From the NCBI GenBank assembly GCA_011605725.1, contig JAAOZP010000012.1:192001-256000 (forward strand): a stretch of DNA of 64,000 nucleotides, in the 5' to 3' direction. This stretch comes from Nitrososphaerota archaeon. GTDB taxonomy: Archaea > Thermoproteota > EX4484-205 > JAAOZP01. The notes under the pieces are model-generated. The model saw only the letters and a list, made by a program, of their open reading frames with translations. It searched no databases and was not told the DNA's origin. This document shows, one piece after another, positions 34,215-40,856 of this stretch. Numbering within the stretch: position 1 is the first letter of the stretch; every line of letters begins with the position of its first letter. The position numbers were made by a program, and so were the translations under genes.

Positions 34215-35336
34215 CTAGAACCAGTCTGAGTGCCAGATGTGAGGATTTCCTGCTGGAAACAATATTTCCAGTGCTTTTTCAACCCTTCCCTCATGCTTCA
34301 CAGTCTGATCTATCAGAGCGTTTCCAGGATGCCTGTATCCGAGGATAAGCTGCATTAATACCCATTGTGGGAGCTCAATCCAGTTCTCCGACAGGGCTTC
34401 TGAAAAAGAAACCCCGGAGTCGGAAACCTCAAGCGTGATTAAGCCTATGTCTGTCTTGAAAGAAATATGTGAGGGCAGTTCTCTAACACAAGCATTCCTC
34501 AAGCGGTCTTCAAACACGGGGGCGAGCTTTTCAAATGTCGATTTGAGATTAATGATTCTCCCCATGCCGTCGGAAGCATAGGGATAGTCAATGCTGATAG
34601 TGCAGCCGAGGCTTTTACAAAGCTCTGTGAAAGGATGGTCGAACGGGGCGTATACTTCAAGCTCAGCAGCCTTCTTCTGAAGAGCAGTATCGTACGCGAA
34701 CCGGAGCACATGCTCGTATAGAGCAACGTCTACAGCACCAACCTCAGTTATCCTCATTACCCTCGGCCACCGGTCAGCAGCGCAGTAGGCAACTATTCTG
34801 CCATACTCGTCTTCGAAGACTGTTCCGTCAGCAGGTATTCCCCACCAGCTTCCCTTTCTAAACCTAAACCATTCCCCCCTATACCTTTTTAAAGGACCCG
34901 TCCTACGCTCATTCGTAAACTCGTAGATTTCCAAGACTGCGGAAGCGTCCTCCTTCACCATAGGGCGGGCGTTAAGCCCGGGCCTAGCCCTCTCAGCATT
35001 TCTAAGAGGCATTGTTATCTTGCAATTGGGAAGCGTCGAAGCATAGCCCCACCTAAAATAGTAATCAGGTATGCCGAAGAGCATTGATACATCATAGCCG
35101 TTTCTAATCATGTATTCGATCGAAAACTCCATAACCTTTCTCGAATACCCCTTCATCCTGTGCTCCTCGAGTGTCCCAACCCCGCCGATCCCTCCAGTTT
35201 TCAAGAATACTTTCCCAACCTTTACTTCAAGATCGTTAATGGTGAGCCAGCTAACCGGCGATCCTCCCAGCTCATCTAGAAGAAGCTCAACCTTATGCGT
35301 CCTCGCCGAGTCGGTAACCCTTATCTCGCTTCCCAT
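34215..35336 (-). CDS. Eis-like tandem GNAT acetyltransferase
   Basis: 'GGIGGVGT..EHRMKGYS', 'LFGIPDYYFRWGY', SCP2-like C-terminus. Confidence 0.82.
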   Translation of the reverse strand: MGSEIRVTDSARTHKVELLLDELGGSPVSWLTINDLEVKVGKVFLKTGGIGGVGTLEEHRMKGYSRKVMEFSIEYMIRNGYDVSMLFGIPDYYFRWGYASTLPNCKITMPLRNAERARPGLNARPMVKEDASAVLEIYEFTNERRTGPLKRYRGEWFRFRKGSWWGIPADGTVFEDEYGRIVAYCAADRWPRVMRITEVGAVDVALYEHVLRFAYDTALQKKAAELEVYAPFDHPFTELCKSLGCTISIDYPYASDGMGRIINLKSTFEKLAPVFEDRLRNACVRELPSHISFKTDIGLITLEVSDSGVSFSEALSENWIELPQWVLMQLILGYRHPGNALIDQTVKHEGRVEKALEILFPAGNPHIWHSDWF

Positions 35337-35379: not shown

Positions 35380-36378
35380 TCACTTAGACTCAATATAGTA
35401 TAGATCCTGCCTCGGATCCCTTATTAAGGGTCTTTTCTTGACGAAATTGTTTCCGACAAGTATCGCGAGAGCATGGCGTACAGTCCTAGCAGGGAGCATC
35501 GTCTTCTTAACAATGTCTTTCTGAGTTAAAGCCCCCTCGTATTCAAGAACCTTCAAAATAAGTTTTGCACTCGGAGGCAGACTGCTTACGTCGAGAGACA
35601 TGCGAGCCTTCTTCTCAAGCCTCCTTGCGAGAAGCGCTTCGCTAAGCCTTACGAAGCCTATGTCCTCACCTTTTTTAATAATAACCTTCTCAGTCACCCT
35701 CATTCTGTATCCACCGTCAACGATGACTTCGCAAGCCGAGTTGCTGACTATGTCCCGGATCTCTATAAGGCTTTCAAGAGGAGTTACTAATGGCCTTCTA
35801 GTAAGATTTAAAGAGTTAACTGGAACTATGCTTACAACCCTGGCCTGCGGATGAATTATCGGCCCCCCTGTTGAAAGAGCATAAGCTGTTGAACCTATGG
35901 GTGTGGAAACTATCAGGCCGTCGCCTATGTCCCTCCAGACGAACTCGCCGTCAACGTAAAGACTGTATTCAAGAATCGTGGCGCTTTTCCGCGGGAAGAT
36001 TGCAAGCTCGTTAAGTGCACACGGTGTTTCAGCATCATCCACCATAGCCTTAAGCCTCGAAGAATACTCCACACTATATTCTCTTCTCAGAAAAGCCCTT
36101 AAAGCTTCGCCGAGCCTATCTAGCGTCGTCTCCATCAGGAAACTATTATTCTCAGTCTTGCTGACCCCTAGGATGAGGACATCCCTAGATTTAACATGAT
36201 GCAACGCTTTCAAAACATCCTTATCCTCACCCAAGATGAGAAGGAGGCCCTCGTTAAGCTTCTCAAGTTCTTCAAGACGTTTGACTCGCGTAACCTCCAC
36301 CCCGACGCGATTGACTGTTCTCAAGCATTCCTTTAGAAGACCACGCTCGAACCTTGCTGGAGCTAGCACTATGTTCAA
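35380..36378 (-). CDS. NAD-kinase-fold protein (degenerate GGDG) fused to a C-terminal winged HTH
   Basis: 'ALNE', 'GDGLIVSTPIGSTAYALSTGGP', 'VDG'; the GGDG position reads 'LGEDKD'; HTH 'LPPSAKLILKVLEYEGALTQKDIVKKTMLPARTVRHAL...DPRQ.LY'. Confidence 0.85.
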   Translation of the reverse strand: MNIVLAPARFERGLLKECLRTVNRVGVEVTRVKRLEELEKLNEGLLLILGEDKDVLKALHHVKSRDVLILGVSKTENNSFLMETTLDRLGEALRAFLRREYSVEYSSRLKAMVDDAETPCALNELAIFPRKSATILEYSLYVDGEFVWRDIGDGLIVSTPIGSTAYALSTGGPIIHPQARVVSIVPVNSLNLTRRPLVTPLESLIEIRDIVSNSACEVIVDGGYRMRVTEKVIIKKGEDIGFVRLSEALLARRLEKKARMSLDVSSLPPSAKLILKVLEYEGALTQKDIVKKTMLPARTVRHALAILVGNNFVKKRPLIRDPRQDLYYIESK

Positions 36379-36470
36379 CTGGTTTCACCAGTGTATTAGA
36401 AGGACTATTTATTGTTTTCAACGGTTTAAAAACATGTGGTCCTATTTTTGCCTTTAAACGAAATATTCAT

Positions 36471-36481
36471 GCAATTATTGC
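36471..36481. promoter_or_regulatory. Candidate operator palindrome GCAAT-T-ATTGC upstream of the nadA TATA box (TTAAATA, 36496-36502)
   Basis: Palindrome read directly in the divergent intergenic region; function inferred. Confidence 0.35.
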
Positions 36482-36530
36482 CTAAACAGAACCACTTAAA
36501 TAAGGGAGTTTAAGGCTTCAAGGGAAGCTG

Positions 36531-37466
36531 ATGGAAGACCTTAGCCGTAGAATACGTGAAAAAGCGAGGGAGACGGGAGCCGTAATACTAGCCCACAATT
36601 ATCAGAGACCAGAGGTGCAGGACGTTGCTGATTTCGTCGGCGACAGTCTGGAACTCTCCATCAAGGCTATGGAGACCGATGCTAAAACGATAGTTTTCGC
36701 GGGCGTAGATTTCATGGTTGAGCAAGCAGCTTTTTTAAACCCCGGTAAGAAAGTGTTGACGCCTGAGCCAGGCTCCATCTGCCCGATGGCGTGGCAGCTT
36801 GACCCACCTGTGGTTGAAGAATACCGTAGGAAAAACCCGGATGCGCCACTCGTGGTTTACGTGAATTCCTTCATCGAGGTCAAGTCTATGGCGGACTACG
36901 TGGTTACCAGCAGCAGCGCCTCAAAGCTAGTGTCTAAACTTGATTCAGAGAAGATTCTTTTTGGACCAGACAGAAACCTAGCATCATACGTTGCCGAAAC
37001 AACCGGGAAGGAGGTTATCGCTGTCCCATTGAACAGCTACTGCCCGGTTCACGTAAACATCACGGCAGATAAAATATTGGCGGTTAAAAGGGGAGTGCCA
37101 GATGCGAAAGTACTTGCGCACCCGGAGTGTCCACCTGAAACAAGGAGGCTTGCGGATTTCATAGGTAGTACGAGTCAAATAATAAGAGCGGTAGGAGAGA
37201 TTAATGCGAAGCGTTTTATAATAGGCACTGAGAATGGAGTGGTTTACAGAATATCAAAGCTTTATCCTGATAAGGAGGCTTATCCTGTTGGCGAAGACAC
37301 AGTATGTCCTAACATGAAAAAGATAACGCTTGAAAAAGTATATAGGAGCCTAATCAGCGGCGAGACTGTTGTAAAGATCGATGAGAAACTTGCCGAGAAA
37401 GCGAGAAGAGTTCTTGAAAGAAGCTTTGCTCTCCTGGGGGTTGAAACACCTTGGTCGAGGAAGTAG
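36531..37466 (+). CDS. nadA: Quinolinate synthase
   Basis: 'ILAHNYQRPEVQDVADFVGDS', 'CPMA', 'YVNS', 'CPVH', 'AHPEC', 'CPNMK'. Confidence 0.96.
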   Translation: MEDLSRRIREKARETGAVILAHNYQRPEVQDVADFVGDSLELSIKAMETDAKTIVFAGVDFMVEQAAFLNPGKKVLTPEPGSICPMAWQLDPPVVEEYRRKNPDAPLVVYVNSFIEVKSMADYVVTSSSASKLVSKLDSEKILFGPDRNLASYVAETTGKEVIAVPLNSYCPVHVNITADKILAVKRGVPDAKVLAHPECPPETRRLADFIGSTSQIIRAVGEINAKRFIIGTENGVVYRISKLYPDKEAYPVGEDTVCPNMKKITLEKVYRSLISGETVVKIDEKLAEKARRVLERSFALLGVETPWSRK

Positions 37467-38305
37467 TTTTCAAAAAATTTATCGAGTGGCTATGTGAAGA
37501 TGTCCCATACTGGGATGTGACTTCTGAGATAATACCTCCAGAGGTAACATGTGAGGCGGTTGTAATAGCTAAGGAGAATGGTGTTGCAGCCTGCTGCGAG
37601 GATCTTGCTCTAATACTTGAGAAGATGGGTTTCACAGTTAGGGTTTTGAAGAAGAGTGGCGAGGAATTCAGAAAAATGGATCAAATAATGTGGATTAAAG
37701 GCAATATGCGTAGACTCATGGAGATTGAGAGACTATTATTAAACATTCTTTCACAAGCCTTCGGAGTGGCAACTTTAACTAGAGCCTTCGTCGAGAAAGC
37801 GAGAAGAATAAGCCCGAACGTGAAGATAGCCGCAACTAGAAAGGTTAAACCAGGCTTCCAGTATTTCGAGAAGAAAGCCATTGCAGCAGCCGGCGGGGAT
37901 ACTCATAGGCTGAATCTGTCGGATATGATTCTCATCAAGGAGAACCATCTAAAGTATTTTAACTCAGTTGGCGAGGCTGTGAAGAAGGCTAGGGAGATAG
38001 CAAGCTTCAGCAAGAAGATAGAAGTGGAGGTGGCTGAGGCTGAAGATGCTGTAGAGGCTGCTGAAGCCGGTGCAGACATAATCATGCTTGACAATTGCAC
38101 CCCTGAAAGAGCAAGGAGAACGATTGAAATGCTTAGAGAGAAAGGCTTGAGGGACAAGGTTCTAATAGAAGTCTCGGGTGGAGTGAAGCTTGAAAACCTT
38201 GAAGAATACGTTGAAACCGGCCCGGACATAATAAGCTCTGGAGAGTTAACGCATTCAGCAAAAGCTATAGATATCTCGCTTGAAGTTACGAGGGTGGAGA
38301 AATGA
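37451..38305 (+). CDS. nadC: Quinolinate phosphoribosyltransferase
   Basis: 'EDVP..DVT', 'ER..LN', 'TRK..PG', 'HR..LSD..LIKENH', 'IEVEV', 'IMLDN', 'SGG'. Confidence 0.96.
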   Translation: MVEEVVFKKFIEWLCEDVPYWDVTSEIIPPEVTCEAVVIAKENGVAACCEDLALILEKMGFTVRVLKKSGEEFRKMDQIMWIKGNMRRLMEIERLLLNILSQAFGVATLTRAFVEKARRISPNVKIAATRKVKPGFQYFEKKAIAAAGGDTHRLNLSDMILIKENHLKYFNSVGEAVKKAREIASFSKKIEVEVAEAEDAVEAAEAGADIIMLDNCTPERARRTIEMLREKGLRDKVLIEVSGGVKLENLEEYVETGPDIISSGELTHSAKAIDISLEVTRVEK

Positions 38306-39093
38306 AGAGAATAGGTTTGATAGGGTGTGGCGCGATAGGCTCTCTCATAGCCACGGCTGTGGACGAGGGCAAGGTTAACGCAAAACTAGTTTACGTGTAT
38401 GATTCTCGTAAAGAGGCTGCGATGAAGCTGGTTGAGAAGCTGAAGAACAAGCCGAAGATTCTGGATGGAATAGAGGAAATGTTGAAAGACAGGAGGGTAA
38501 AAATTATTGTCGAGGCTGCCAGCGACGAGGCTGTCCTAAAATATCTTAAACCCATTGTTGAGGCAGGTAAAGAGATGCTTGTGATGAGCATAGGTGGGCT
38601 CCTTTTCCCAGAGACGAGAAAAATATATGAGGAAAACGCTAGCAAGATACATGTTCCGGCTGGAGCAATCGCTGGACTGGATGCCATCCAAGCCATAAGC
38701 CTAGTCGGTGTTGACAGGGTTGTTCTAACCACAAGGAAGCCTCCTGAAGCATTAGCATACTCCAATTATTTTAAGGAGAAAGGGATTGAACTGGATAGGA
38801 TCAAGGAGCCTACGCTAGTCTACGACGGGCCTGTTGAAGACGCTTTAATACATTTTCCCAGAAGCGTGAACGTGGCGGCAGCATTAGCCTTATACTCTAA
38901 ATCCGGGGTTGAAGTTAGAATAATAGCAGACCCGGCTAGGAAGGAGATATTGCATGAGATAGATGTCGAATCCAAGGTTTCCAACCTAAAGATACTGGTT
39001 GAAAACATCCCGCATCCAGATAACCCTAGGACGAGCTATTTGGCAGCATTATCCTGCATTCAGAAACTTAAAGAGATTTGCGCTAAGCAGTAA
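38302..39093 (+). CDS. nadX: L-aspartate dehydrogenase
   Basis: 'IGCGAIG', 'VEAAS', 'GAIAGLD', 'TRKPP', 'NVAAAL', 'NPRTSYLAALS'; in an operon with nadA and nadC. Confidence 0.93.
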   Translation: MKRIGLIGCGAIGSLIATAVDEGKVNAKLVYVYDSRKEAAMKLVEKLKNKPKILDGIEEMLKDRRVKIIVEAASDEAVLKYLKPIVEAGKEMLVMSIGGLLFPETRKIYEENASKIHVPAGAIAGLDAIQAISLVGVDRVVLTTRKPPEALAYSNYFKEKGIELDRIKEPTLVYDGPVEDALIHFPRSVNVAAALALYSKSGVEVRIIADPARKEILHEIDVESKVSNLKILVENIPHPDNPRTSYLAALSCIQKLKEICAKQ

Positions 39094-39299: not shown

Positions 39300-40856
39300 A
39301 TGAGTAATAATGCGGTTAAAGTCTATGTTCTAGACCCTGCTTCAATACTTACCGGAGTAGCCGCTAGGGCGGTTGAAAACGGTGAGGTAGTTGGCAGGAT
39401 AATAGTGCATAAGGCCATTGTGTCGGAGTTTGAAAGAAAAGCCAGAGTTGGAGATGAAACAGGGTTAAACGGTTTAAAATCGCTGAAGGATGCTGCTTCA
39501 GCGAAGCGGCTTAGTGTGGAATTCATAGGCTCTTCAAACACTCCTGAAGAAGTTTCCACAGCATTGAGGGATCTAGCGATAAATATGAACGGCACACTTG
39601 TCTCATGCGACCCAGTTTTAACGAAGACTGCGAAAGCAATGGGGATTGAGGCACTCTATCTTAGCCCGGTTGGAAAAGCTAAGCTTGAAGAATTCTTTAA
39701 ACCAGGCATAATGTCTATACATCTCAAGGAGAATGTTGTTCCGAAGGCGAAGGAAGGAGTTCCAGGCAAATGGGTTTACAGGGATGTTGGGGAGAAGCCA
39801 ATAAGCAAGTCTGAGCTTGAATCAATAATAGCTGACATAATGGAGAGAGTCCAGTTTACAAACCAGGGTTTTGTGGAAATAGACAAGTCTGGCTCGACAA
39901 TAATACAGCTTAAAGACCTTAGAATAGTCATAACTAGACCACCTTTCTCCGACGGACTTGAAATAACCGCTGTTAAACCGCTTGTCAAGAGAAGCCTTGA
40001 AGAATATAATTTGGCTGACAAGCTTGTTGAAAGGCTTAGGACTCAAGCTGAGGGAATACTAATAGCTGGAGCCCCTGGAATGGGAAAGTCGACTTTCGCC
40101 CAGGCTCTCGCAGAGTTCTACAGGTCGATGAACAAGGTTGTTAAAACAATAGAGAGCCCGAGAGACCTTCAACTCCCTCCTGACGTGACACAGTATTCTA
40201 AGACTGCTGCCGAACCGAGTGAGCTCCACGACGTATTACTGTTAAGCAGACCGGACTACACGATATACGATGAGCTTAGAGACACTAACGACTTCAACAT
40301 TTTCATAGATCTTAGGCTCGCAGGCATAGGGATGGTTGGCGTCATACATGCTACAACACCCATGGACGCTATTCAACGCTTCACCGGCAGGACTGATCTT
40401 GGACTCATACCCTCCATCATAGACACAGTCATATTCATGAAGGAGGGAGAGGTTTCTAAAATATACACGCTTGAAACAGTCGTGAAAATACCTAAGGGGA
40501 TGAGGAACGCAGACCTAGCTAGGCCGACGATAATCGTTAAAAACTTCTTAACGGGGGAGGTGGAGTACGAGCTTTATGTCTTCGGAGAGCAAACCTTCAT
40601 AGTACCGGTTCGTAAGAAGAAGACAGGGTATGAGGAGAAGCTTAAGGAGGAGGTTCAGGCAATAGTGCATAACCAGATTTCAGACTTCGACATCAGGGTA
40701 GAGGGAGACAGGCTAATTCTCTATGCGAACAAGGAGGACATACCCATACTTGTAAAGAAGTACAATAAGAAGCTAAACAGGTTTGCAAAGAGGATAAACA
40801 TGAATATTGAGATAAGCCCCCAGAGTAGGCGTGAAACCGGGAACAGAGAACAATAG
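39300..40856 (+). CDS. PINA-type ATPase (PIN-like N-terminus, PilT/VirB11-like ATPase, KH-like C-terminus)
   Basis: 'MSIHLKE', 'RPPFSDGLEITAVKP', Walker A 'GAPGMGKSTFAQALAE', 'ESPRDL', 'RPDYTIYDE', 'DLRLAGIGMVGVIHA'. Confidence 0.88.
   Translation: MSNNAVKVYVLDPASILTGVAARAVENGEVVGRIIVHKAIVSEFERKARVGDETGLNGLKSLKDAASAKRLSVEFIGSSNTPEEVSTALRDLAINMNGTLVSCDPVLTKTAKAMGIEALYLSPVGKAKLEEFFKPGIMSIHLKENVVPKAKEGVPGKWVYRDVGEKPISKSELESIIADIMERVQFTNQGFVEIDKSGSTIIQLKDLRIVITRPPFSDGLEITAVKPLVKRSLEEYNLADKLVERLRTQAEGILIAGAPGMGKSTFAQALAEFYRSMNKVVKTIESPRDLQLPPDVTQYSKTAAEPSELHDVLLLSRPDYTIYDELRDTNDFNIFIDLRLAGIGMVGVIHATTPMDAIQRFTGRTDLGLIPSIIDTVIFMKEGEVSKIYTLETVVKIPKGMRNADLARPTIIVKNFLTGEVEYELYVFGEQTFIVPVRKKKTGYEEKLKEEVQAIVHNQISDFDIRVEGDRLILYANKEDIPILVKKYNKKLNRFAKRINMNIEISPQSRRETGNREQ

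What the first reader, a model, noticed from the sequence alone, without database searches (positions are those of the whole stretch)
35380..39093. NAD-kinase-fold sensor plus winged HTH divergent from nadA-nadC-nadX: candidate NAD(P)-responsive transcription factor
Seen: the protein keeps the NAD-binding elements of NAD kinases (NE motif; DG-x-STP-x-GSTAY-x-SxGGP). The GGDG(T) catalytic signature reads LGEDKD, and an approximately 65-aa MarR/TrmB-like wHTH is fused at the C-terminus. The gene shares a 152-bp divergent promoter region with the complete de novo NAD operon. Established: known NAD regulators (NadR, NrtR, NiaR, NadQ) reuse enzyme or ligand-binding folds as sensors. I know of none built on an NAD-kinase fold. 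Inference: this is a pseudo-kinase that senses NAD/NADP and controls nadACX. Automated pipelines would probably label it just 'NAD kinase'.
Basis: partly seen in the sequence, partly recalled or inferred. Interest (0 to 1): 0.82.

Follow-up and report, generated by a model that had tools for sequence, protein, structure and literature searches.

The report
NAD-kinase-derived regulator of archaeal NAD synthesis
This archaeal gene fuses a remodelled spare copy of NAD kinase to a DNA-binding winged helix and faces the NAD-synthesis genes across a conserved 13-bp DNA palindrome, so it is very probably an undescribed transcription factor, likely an activator, that adjusts NAD synthesis to the cell's NAD level.

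Summary
Observation confirmed. In this Brockarchaeota-type genome a 332-aa NAD-kinase-fold + winged-helix protein lies 152 bp head-to-head with nadA-nadC-nadX; a normal GGDGT NAD kinase lies elsewhere. The fusion is a broad family (Thermoproteota, Asgard, some Thermoplasmatota/DPANN-type), repeatedly adjacent to nadA, pncB, nadE/nadM or a NiaP-like transporter. De novo motif search without Brockarchaeota gave GGCAA-N3-TTGCC; its best site in the whole 2.23-Mb genome is this nadA promoter (36470-36482). Where the gene is unlinked, the box still precedes nadA (15/21 genomes, against 1/18 lacking the gene; lineages not independent). Its centre lies about 20 or 50 bp upstream of the TATA box, an activator geometry like RbkR. 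Correction: 'pseudo-kinase' is not shown. The catalytic Asp and the NAD-binding residues are kept; only the glycine loops are remodelled. DNA binding, ligand and sign of regulation are inferred, not tested. I found no paper on it. This scan has reported the same family before on other DNA.

The parts
35380..36378 (-). NAD-kinase-fold + winged-helix gene (332 aa), candidate regulator
35389..35580 (-). C-terminal winged helix-turn-helix (residues 267-330), the most conserved part of the family
   Evidence: mean column conservation 0.59, against 0.53 for the NAD-binding domain and 0.31 for the N-domain
36217..36231 (-). Remodelled GGDGT motif, G-E-D-K-D (residues 50-54); catalytic Asp kept
36406..36419 (-). 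Tentative BRE/TATA of the regulator's own, near-leaderless promoter
   Evidence: sequence and partial conservation in the genus alignment; inference, low confidence
36440..36452 (.). Distal half box; its TTGCC lies exactly 30 bp upstream of the TTGCC of the proximal box
   Evidence: repeat D5; last 7 bases 98% conserved in 13 genus members, against 57% for the spacer
36470..36482 (.). Proximal operator box TGCAATTATTGCC (consensus GGCAA-N3-TTGCC), centre 20 bp upstream of the nadA TATA box
   Evidence: rank 1 in the genome with a matrix trained without Brockarchaeota; 98% conserved
36487..36503 (+). Predicted BRE + TATA box (TTAAATAA from 36496) of the nad operon
   Evidence: 90% conserved in the genus
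36531..37466 (+). nadA, quinolinate synthase
37451..38305 (+). nadC, quinolinate phosphoribosyltransferase
38302..39093 (+). nadX, aspartate dehydrogenase

Best explanation
The protein is a transcription factor for NAD supply, built from a duplicate NAD kinase. Its winged helices bind the palindrome GGCAA-N3-TTGCC upstream of nadA (and, in other lineages, of a NiaP-like transporter, pncB or a nadC-nadX-nadE-nadM operon). The kinase body serves as the pyridine-dinucleotide sensor. Most likely it is an activator: bound just upstream of BRE/TATA when NAD is low, released or inactivated when NAD (or NADP) fills the site. Shown: architecture, synteny, box, box position, coexistence with a normal kinase. 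Inferred: that this protein binds the box (about 0.88); that the signal is NAD(H)/NADP(H) (about 0.8); activator rather than repressor (about 0.7); little or no kinase activity (about 0.65). That an oligomer spans the two boxes 30 bp apart is a guess from NAD kinases being dimers or tetramers.
For: (1) Synteny in distant lineages: divergent from nadA in 12 genus members besides this genome, Thermofilaceae, Nitrososphaerales, other Thermoproteota families and Thorarchaeota; 12 of 20 Asgard loci have nadA and 6 have pncB beside it; divergent from a NiaP-like PF00083 transporter in 9 loci (family features in PMC2330245); divergent from nadC-nadX-nadE-nadM in L343. (2) EM on 21 non-Brockarchaeota regions gives the palindrome at log-likelihood 104, against 25-32 on shuffles. 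(3) Held-out: top site of 2,227,263 positions is this promoter. (4) With the gene unlinked, the box precedes nadA in 15/21 genomes against 1/18 lacking the gene; in complete genome G036 the only perfect palindrome is at nadA; in G286, which has no nadA hit, a perfect box precedes the NiaP-like gene. (5) Box centre to TATA is 19-22 or 49-52 bp in most lineages; RbkR sites 1-12 nt upstream of promoter elements were read as activation (PMC5397151). (6) NAD-binding residues are 93-100% conserved (N123, E/D124, D153, Y166; T/S164) while G51, G53, T54 and the GxxG motif are not. (7) All 61 carrier genomes tested hold a second NAD-kinase-domain gene.
Against: No binding or expression data. The genome counts are not independent: 12 of the 21 unlinked genomes are one family of ammonia oxidisers; by family it is 3 of 5 against 1 of 10. 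Some carriers lack the box (GRDRD-type members next to nadA or niaP, G021, G220, G160, G284), and G065 lacks the gene yet has an 11.8-bit site. Many carriers have no nadA hit at all (families f18 and f30), so their targets are mostly unknown. The perfect palindrome also occurs often inside coding sequence (14 in G113), so only its position is informative. The catalytic Asp is kept (91%), which does not fit a simple dead enzyme.
Confidence: 0.82

Rival explanations
1. Same regulator and box, but a repressor: NAD(P)-bound protein occupies the boxes and hinders TFB/TBP loading at the adjacent BRE, as bacterial NadR and NiaR repress with a co-repressor.
For: The proximal box ends about 6 bp from the predicted BRE, close enough for steric clash; bacterial NAD regulators NadR, NiaR and NrtR are repressors (PMC2330245, PMC2330246; own knowledge).
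Against: In the nadA promoters examined the box lies upstream of, not on, the TATA or start region. In ammonia oxidisers the strong box is about 50 bp upstream of TATA, too far to block by itself. A fixed, helically phased spacing (20 and 50) fits contact with the initiation complex.
Confidence: 0.25
2. A bifunctional enzyme-regulator like RbkR: it still phosphorylates NAD(H), and substrate or product turnover is the signal.
For: D52, N123, E124, D153, T164 and Y166 are all kept (roles in PMC8553519). A Micrarchaeota-type subclade keeps GGDGT and GINCGxxG intact. Two carriers have only a long-type (about 360 aa) second homolog and two MAGs show no second homolog.
Against: G51/G53/T54 vary freely (dozens of variants, often G-x-D-R-D) and the GxxG motif is degenerate, against 95% conservation in canonical enzymes; a second NAD-kinase homolog is present in 61 of 61 carriers, unlike RbkR, which is the only RibK ortholog in most of its genomes (PMC5397151).
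Confidence: 0.3
3. Not a regulator of these genes: a second NAD kinase or NAD-binding protein clustered with NAD genes for metabolic reasons, while the box belongs to another factor.
For: The box is present in G065 without the gene, and absent in some carriers; binding is untested.
Against: The box tracks the gene even when it is unlinked, follows it to different target genes, and the winged helix with its R-T-V-R recognition helix is the most conserved part of the protein.
Confidence: 0.08

Closest known systems
RbkR, archaeal riboflavin kinase/wHTH regulator (PMC5397151)
   Same: Cofactor kinase fused to a MarR-type winged helix in archaea; palindromic sites just upstream of BRE/TATA of cofactor synthesis and uptake genes; proposed activator released by the cofactor.
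   Different: Different kinase fold and cofactor; HTH is C-terminal here, N-terminal in RbkR; RbkR is the active and usually only kinase, whereas this protein is a paralog beside another NAD kinase and has remodelled phosphate loops; RbkR was tested in vitro, this was not.
NAD kinase (NadK/PpnK; PF01513 + PF20143)
   Same: Fold (Foldseek E about 1e-25), NE motif, conserved region II, catalytic Asp.
   Different: GGDGT and GxxG glycine motifs remodelled; below every NCBIfam NadK cut-off (best 139 against 326 bits); extra helix and winged helix; family-specific W148, D150, N188, S189, R225.
Bacterial NAD regulators NrtR, NiaR, NadR (PMC2330246, PMC2330245) and NadQ (own knowledge)
   Same: Regulon content (nadA, nadC, pncB, niaP, nadE/M); enzyme-like or ligand-binding domain fused to an HTH.
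   Different: Sensor domains are Nudix, 3H or NMNAT/kinase, not NAD kinase; no such domain was found in this protein; the three named in the papers act as repressors in bacteria.

Membership tests
NAD kinase (NadK) | Two-domain NAD-kinase fold | tested here: met
NAD kinase (NadK) | GGDG(T/S/N) motif intact | tested here: not met
   reads GEDKD; family G-x-D-x-x
NAD kinase (NadK) | Catalytic Asp, NE/D motif and conserved region II (D, T, Y) | tested here: met
   D52, N123, E124, D153, T164, Y166, mapped by motif to the residues in PMC8553519
NAD kinase (NadK) | Score above a curated NadK equivalog cut-off | tested here: not met
NAD kinase (NadK) | Phosphorylates NAD(H) | not testable with these tools
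   needs an enzyme assay
RbkR | CTP-dependent riboflavin kinase domain with N-terminal wHTH | tested here: not met
   no such Pfam or NCBIfam hit; HTH is C-terminal
NrtR / NiaR / NadR | Nudix, 3H or NMNAT-RNK sensor domain | tested here: not met
Enzyme-derived cofactor-sensing transcription factor (the kind) | Enzyme fold fused to a conserved DNA-binding domain | tested here: met
Enzyme-derived cofactor-sensing transcription factor (the kind) | Conserved operator upstream of the cofactor's genes that co-occurs with the factor | tested here: met
   (lineages not independent; exceptions noted)
Enzyme-derived cofactor-sensing transcription factor (the kind) | Ligand-dependent DNA binding and effect on transcription | not testable with these tools
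   needs EMSA and genetics

The most novel reading that the evidence does not exclude
An undescribed, widespread archaeal NAD-sensing activator (in all 45 sampled genomes of the ammonia-oxidiser family, in Asgard and in Metallosphaera), in which a NAD-kinase oligomer has become a sensor that reads two boxes 30 bp apart; the Micrarchaeota-type subclade with intact GGDGT would preserve the earlier, still catalytic state.
Probability: 0.5. Interest if true: 0.8.

Novelty: new variant of a known kind. Interest (0 to 1): 0.7.

Why it matters
[quoted passage not shown] This gives a named protein, a 13-bp operator and its promoter geometry, ready for EMSA and genetics in cultured hosts (Metallosphaera, Nitrosopumilus). 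It would also correct a common mis-annotation ('NAD kinase', 'sugar kinase') in ammonia-oxidising archaea and Asgard, help assign NiaP-like niacin transporters, and offer a scaffold for an NAD-responsive biosensor.

Tried and rejected
Complex prediction (two copies + NAD): no verdict, used neither for nor against. The look-up of sequencing runs: no RNA holder listed. The first related-loci scan was swamped by ordinary NAD kinases; a diverse HTH-only alignment had no usable pattern. The sigma-70 promoter scan is not suited to archaea and gave chance levels. Other NAD genes of this genome (nadE, nadM, pncB, canonical nadK) have no convincing box (best 7.5 bits), so the local regulon seems limited to nadACX and perhaps the gene itself. 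Two supposed control genomes (G042, G063) turned out to carry divergent family members: G042 was excluded and G063 moved to the carriers. My first TATA pattern missed TTAAAT and was redone. Strict monophyly of the family was not established: a FastTree of the kinase domain puts 151 of 153 fusions in one group (support 0.85) that also holds 11 rows without a detected HTH, several of them fragments or one frameshifted copy; no formal test was run. Paper searches for this protein gave nothing relevant; the library lacks most subscription journals and databases such as RegPrecise or arCOG notes, so prior mention is not excluded.

Full report
Observation. The window is C1:192001-256000 of a 2.23-Mb, 93% complete assembly whose nearest relatives are named Candidatus Brockarchaeota. 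ORF 35380-36378 (-) encodes 332 aa. It hits PF20143 (E=5.6e-27) and weak HTH_9/MarR models at 267-323, and all NCBIfam NAD-kinase models below their cut-offs. The AlphaFold2 model (pLDDT 91.8) shows the kinase body, a linker helix at 248-265 and a three-helix, two-strand winged helix; Foldseek returns NAD kinases. nadA, nadC and nadX follow on the + strand after 152 bp and pass curated cut-offs. nadE and nadM are on other contigs, so the operon is the aspartate-to-NaMN branch.

Second kinase. The genome has a 268-aa NAD kinase with GGDGT on contig C12. All 61 carrier genomes tested have at least two PF20143 matches. In two of them the second is a longer (about 360 aa) GGDGT protein. Two MAGs reached through loci showed only the fusion.

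Family. The fusion is not a one-off. It was found in 98 of 301 sampled genomes of the phylum, including 45 of 45 in the family that the locus titles and gene order identify as ammonia oxidisers, in 20 of 71 Asgard genomes, and in Metallosphaera, Thermoplasmatota and Micrarchaeota records. Databases name members 'NAD kinase', 'sugar kinase' or 'MarR regulator'.

Is it a pseudo-kinase? Not shown. Aligning 153 fusions with 116 HTH-less homologs: G50 99%, D52 91%, N123 100%, E/D124 100%, D153 98%, T/S164 100%, Y166 93% are kept. By motif these are the residues that PMC8553519 lists as catalytic (Asp45 of Listeria NADK1, Asp85 of Ppnk) or as NAD-binding. What changed is the glycine-rich part: G51 35% (96% in canonical), G53 21% (95%), T54 25% (73%), and the GxxG motif near 76-79. 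The family gained W148, D150, N188, S189 and R225. From general knowledge of the GGDG kinase superfamily the glycines accommodate phosphates, so reduced phosphoryl transfer with retained NAD binding is the likely reading, but it is inference. One subclade (support 0.99, a member named Micrarchaeota) keeps GGDGT; its two inspected loci have no NAD genes or box.

Neighbourhood. In this genus the gene is divergent from nadA in 12 other genomes; a 13th copy sits at a contig end. The same divergent layout recurs in Thermofilaceae, Nitrososphaerales, other Thermoproteota families and Thorarchaeota. Of 20 Asgard loci, 12 have nadA and 6 have pncB next to it (pncB confirmed). Nine loci have a divergent PF00083 transporter with aromatic-acid/SV2-type hits, the features given for NiaP in PMC2330245; the NiaP label is an inference. 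L343 is divergent from nadC-nadX-nadE-nadM and L342 lies near nadA and nadX. In ammonia oxidisers it sits between a pfkB gene and pyrG, unlinked to nad genes.

Operator. Palindromic EM on 21 non-Brockarchaeota upstream regions converged on GGCAA-N3-TTGCC (log-likelihood 104 against 25-32 for shuffles). With that matrix, the best site in the whole held-out genome is 36468-36484, 19.2 bits; it also ranks first among 1,998 upstream regions, of which 1.9% reach 10 bits. In 13 genus members the box and a half box 30 bp upstream are 98% conserved, against 57% for the spacer. Independent test: upstream of nadA in genomes where the gene is unlinked, 15 of 21 reach 10 bits; in genomes without the intact gene, 1 of 18 (Fisher p=4e-5). 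That p overstates, because 12 carriers are one family; by family it is 3 of 5 against 1 of 10. In complete genome G036 the only perfect palindrome lies at nadA. In G286, with no nadA hit, a perfect intergenic box precedes the NiaP-like gene. L343 has a 16.9-bit box. Exceptions: the GRDRD-type members and a few others lack the box; G065 has a site without the gene; perfect palindromes are common inside genes.

Geometry and mechanism. The distance from box centre to a TATA-like element is 19-22 bp (Brockarchaeota, Thermofilaceae, some Thorarchaeota) or 49-52 bp (all 14 ammonia oxidisers examined, most Thorarchaeota), and several promoters have both, 29-30 bp apart. Here: centre 36476, TATA from 36496, distal half box at 36440-36452. 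The sites lie upstream of BRE/TATA, not on them. The same arrangement led to RbkR being called a likely activator that FMN releases from DNA (PMC5397151). I therefore commit to: a dimer or tetramer binds the boxes and helps TFB/TBP load when NAD is scarce, and NAD (or NADP) binding switches it off. Binding, ligand and sign are inferred. A repressor (0.25) or a still active kinase-regulator (0.3) are compatible with the same sequence data.

Comparison. It works like RbkR and regulates the same gene set as bacterial NrtR, NiaR and NadR, but it has none of their sensor domains. It fails the GGDG and cut-off tests for NadK while keeping the fold. Eight paper searches aimed at it found no description; the library is incomplete. 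This scan has noted the same family on other genomes with a similar conclusion. I had derived the motif and its tests before reading those notes, and they are not counted as evidence.

Verdict. A real, well-supported candidate transcription factor family with a new sensor fold and a testable operator: new variant of a known kind, interest 0.7.

Noticed in passing
P0144, P0153, P0172, P0174, P0199; loci L340:5001-5999, L341:5001-6047: A Micrarchaeota-type subclade of the fusion keeps GGDGT and GINCGxxG intact, has a more divergent winged helix, and in two loci shows no NAD genes or box; possibly an active kinase with an HTH.
   Followed up: partly
L120, L121, L150, L262, L297: GRDRD-type members sit directly upstream of nadA-nadC or divergent from the NiaP-like transporter but lack the GGCAA-N3-TTGCC box; their operator has probably diverged.
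   Followed up: partly
L122, L140, L151, L123, L141: In family f30 (no nadA hit) the gene is divergent from or upstream of a liv-type ABC transporter, with GGCAAAA and TTG(A)CC half-sites about 37 bp apart; in L123 it is divergent from a VTT gene and a YjeF-type NAD(P)HX repair gene. The transporter may import a niacin-type precursor.
   Followed up: no
L004-L013, L135-L139, L180-L231: In ammonia-oxidising archaea the gene lies in a conserved pfkB > regulator > < pyrG block; the box lies between nadX and nadA rather than upstream of nadX.
   Followed up: partly
L261 (G065), about 129 bases upstream of nadA: An 11.8-bit box with a second GGCAA half-site about 40 bp downstream in a genome where the gene was not found.
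   Followed up: partly
L097:1495-2496 (G013) and G052:C12:63956-64240: One genus member has a broken copy (frameshift or assembly error); G052 holds only a stop-ridden remnant of the winged helix and has no box at nadA.
   Followed up: no
window 39300-40856 (+): PINA-type Holliday-junction branch-migration ATPase right after nadX, conserved there in the genus, with its own upstream gap; not part of the regulon as far as tested.
   Followed up: no
window 34215-35336 (-): GNAT (Eis-like) acetyltransferase 43 bp downstream of the regulator on the same strand, conserved only within the genus.
   Followed up: no
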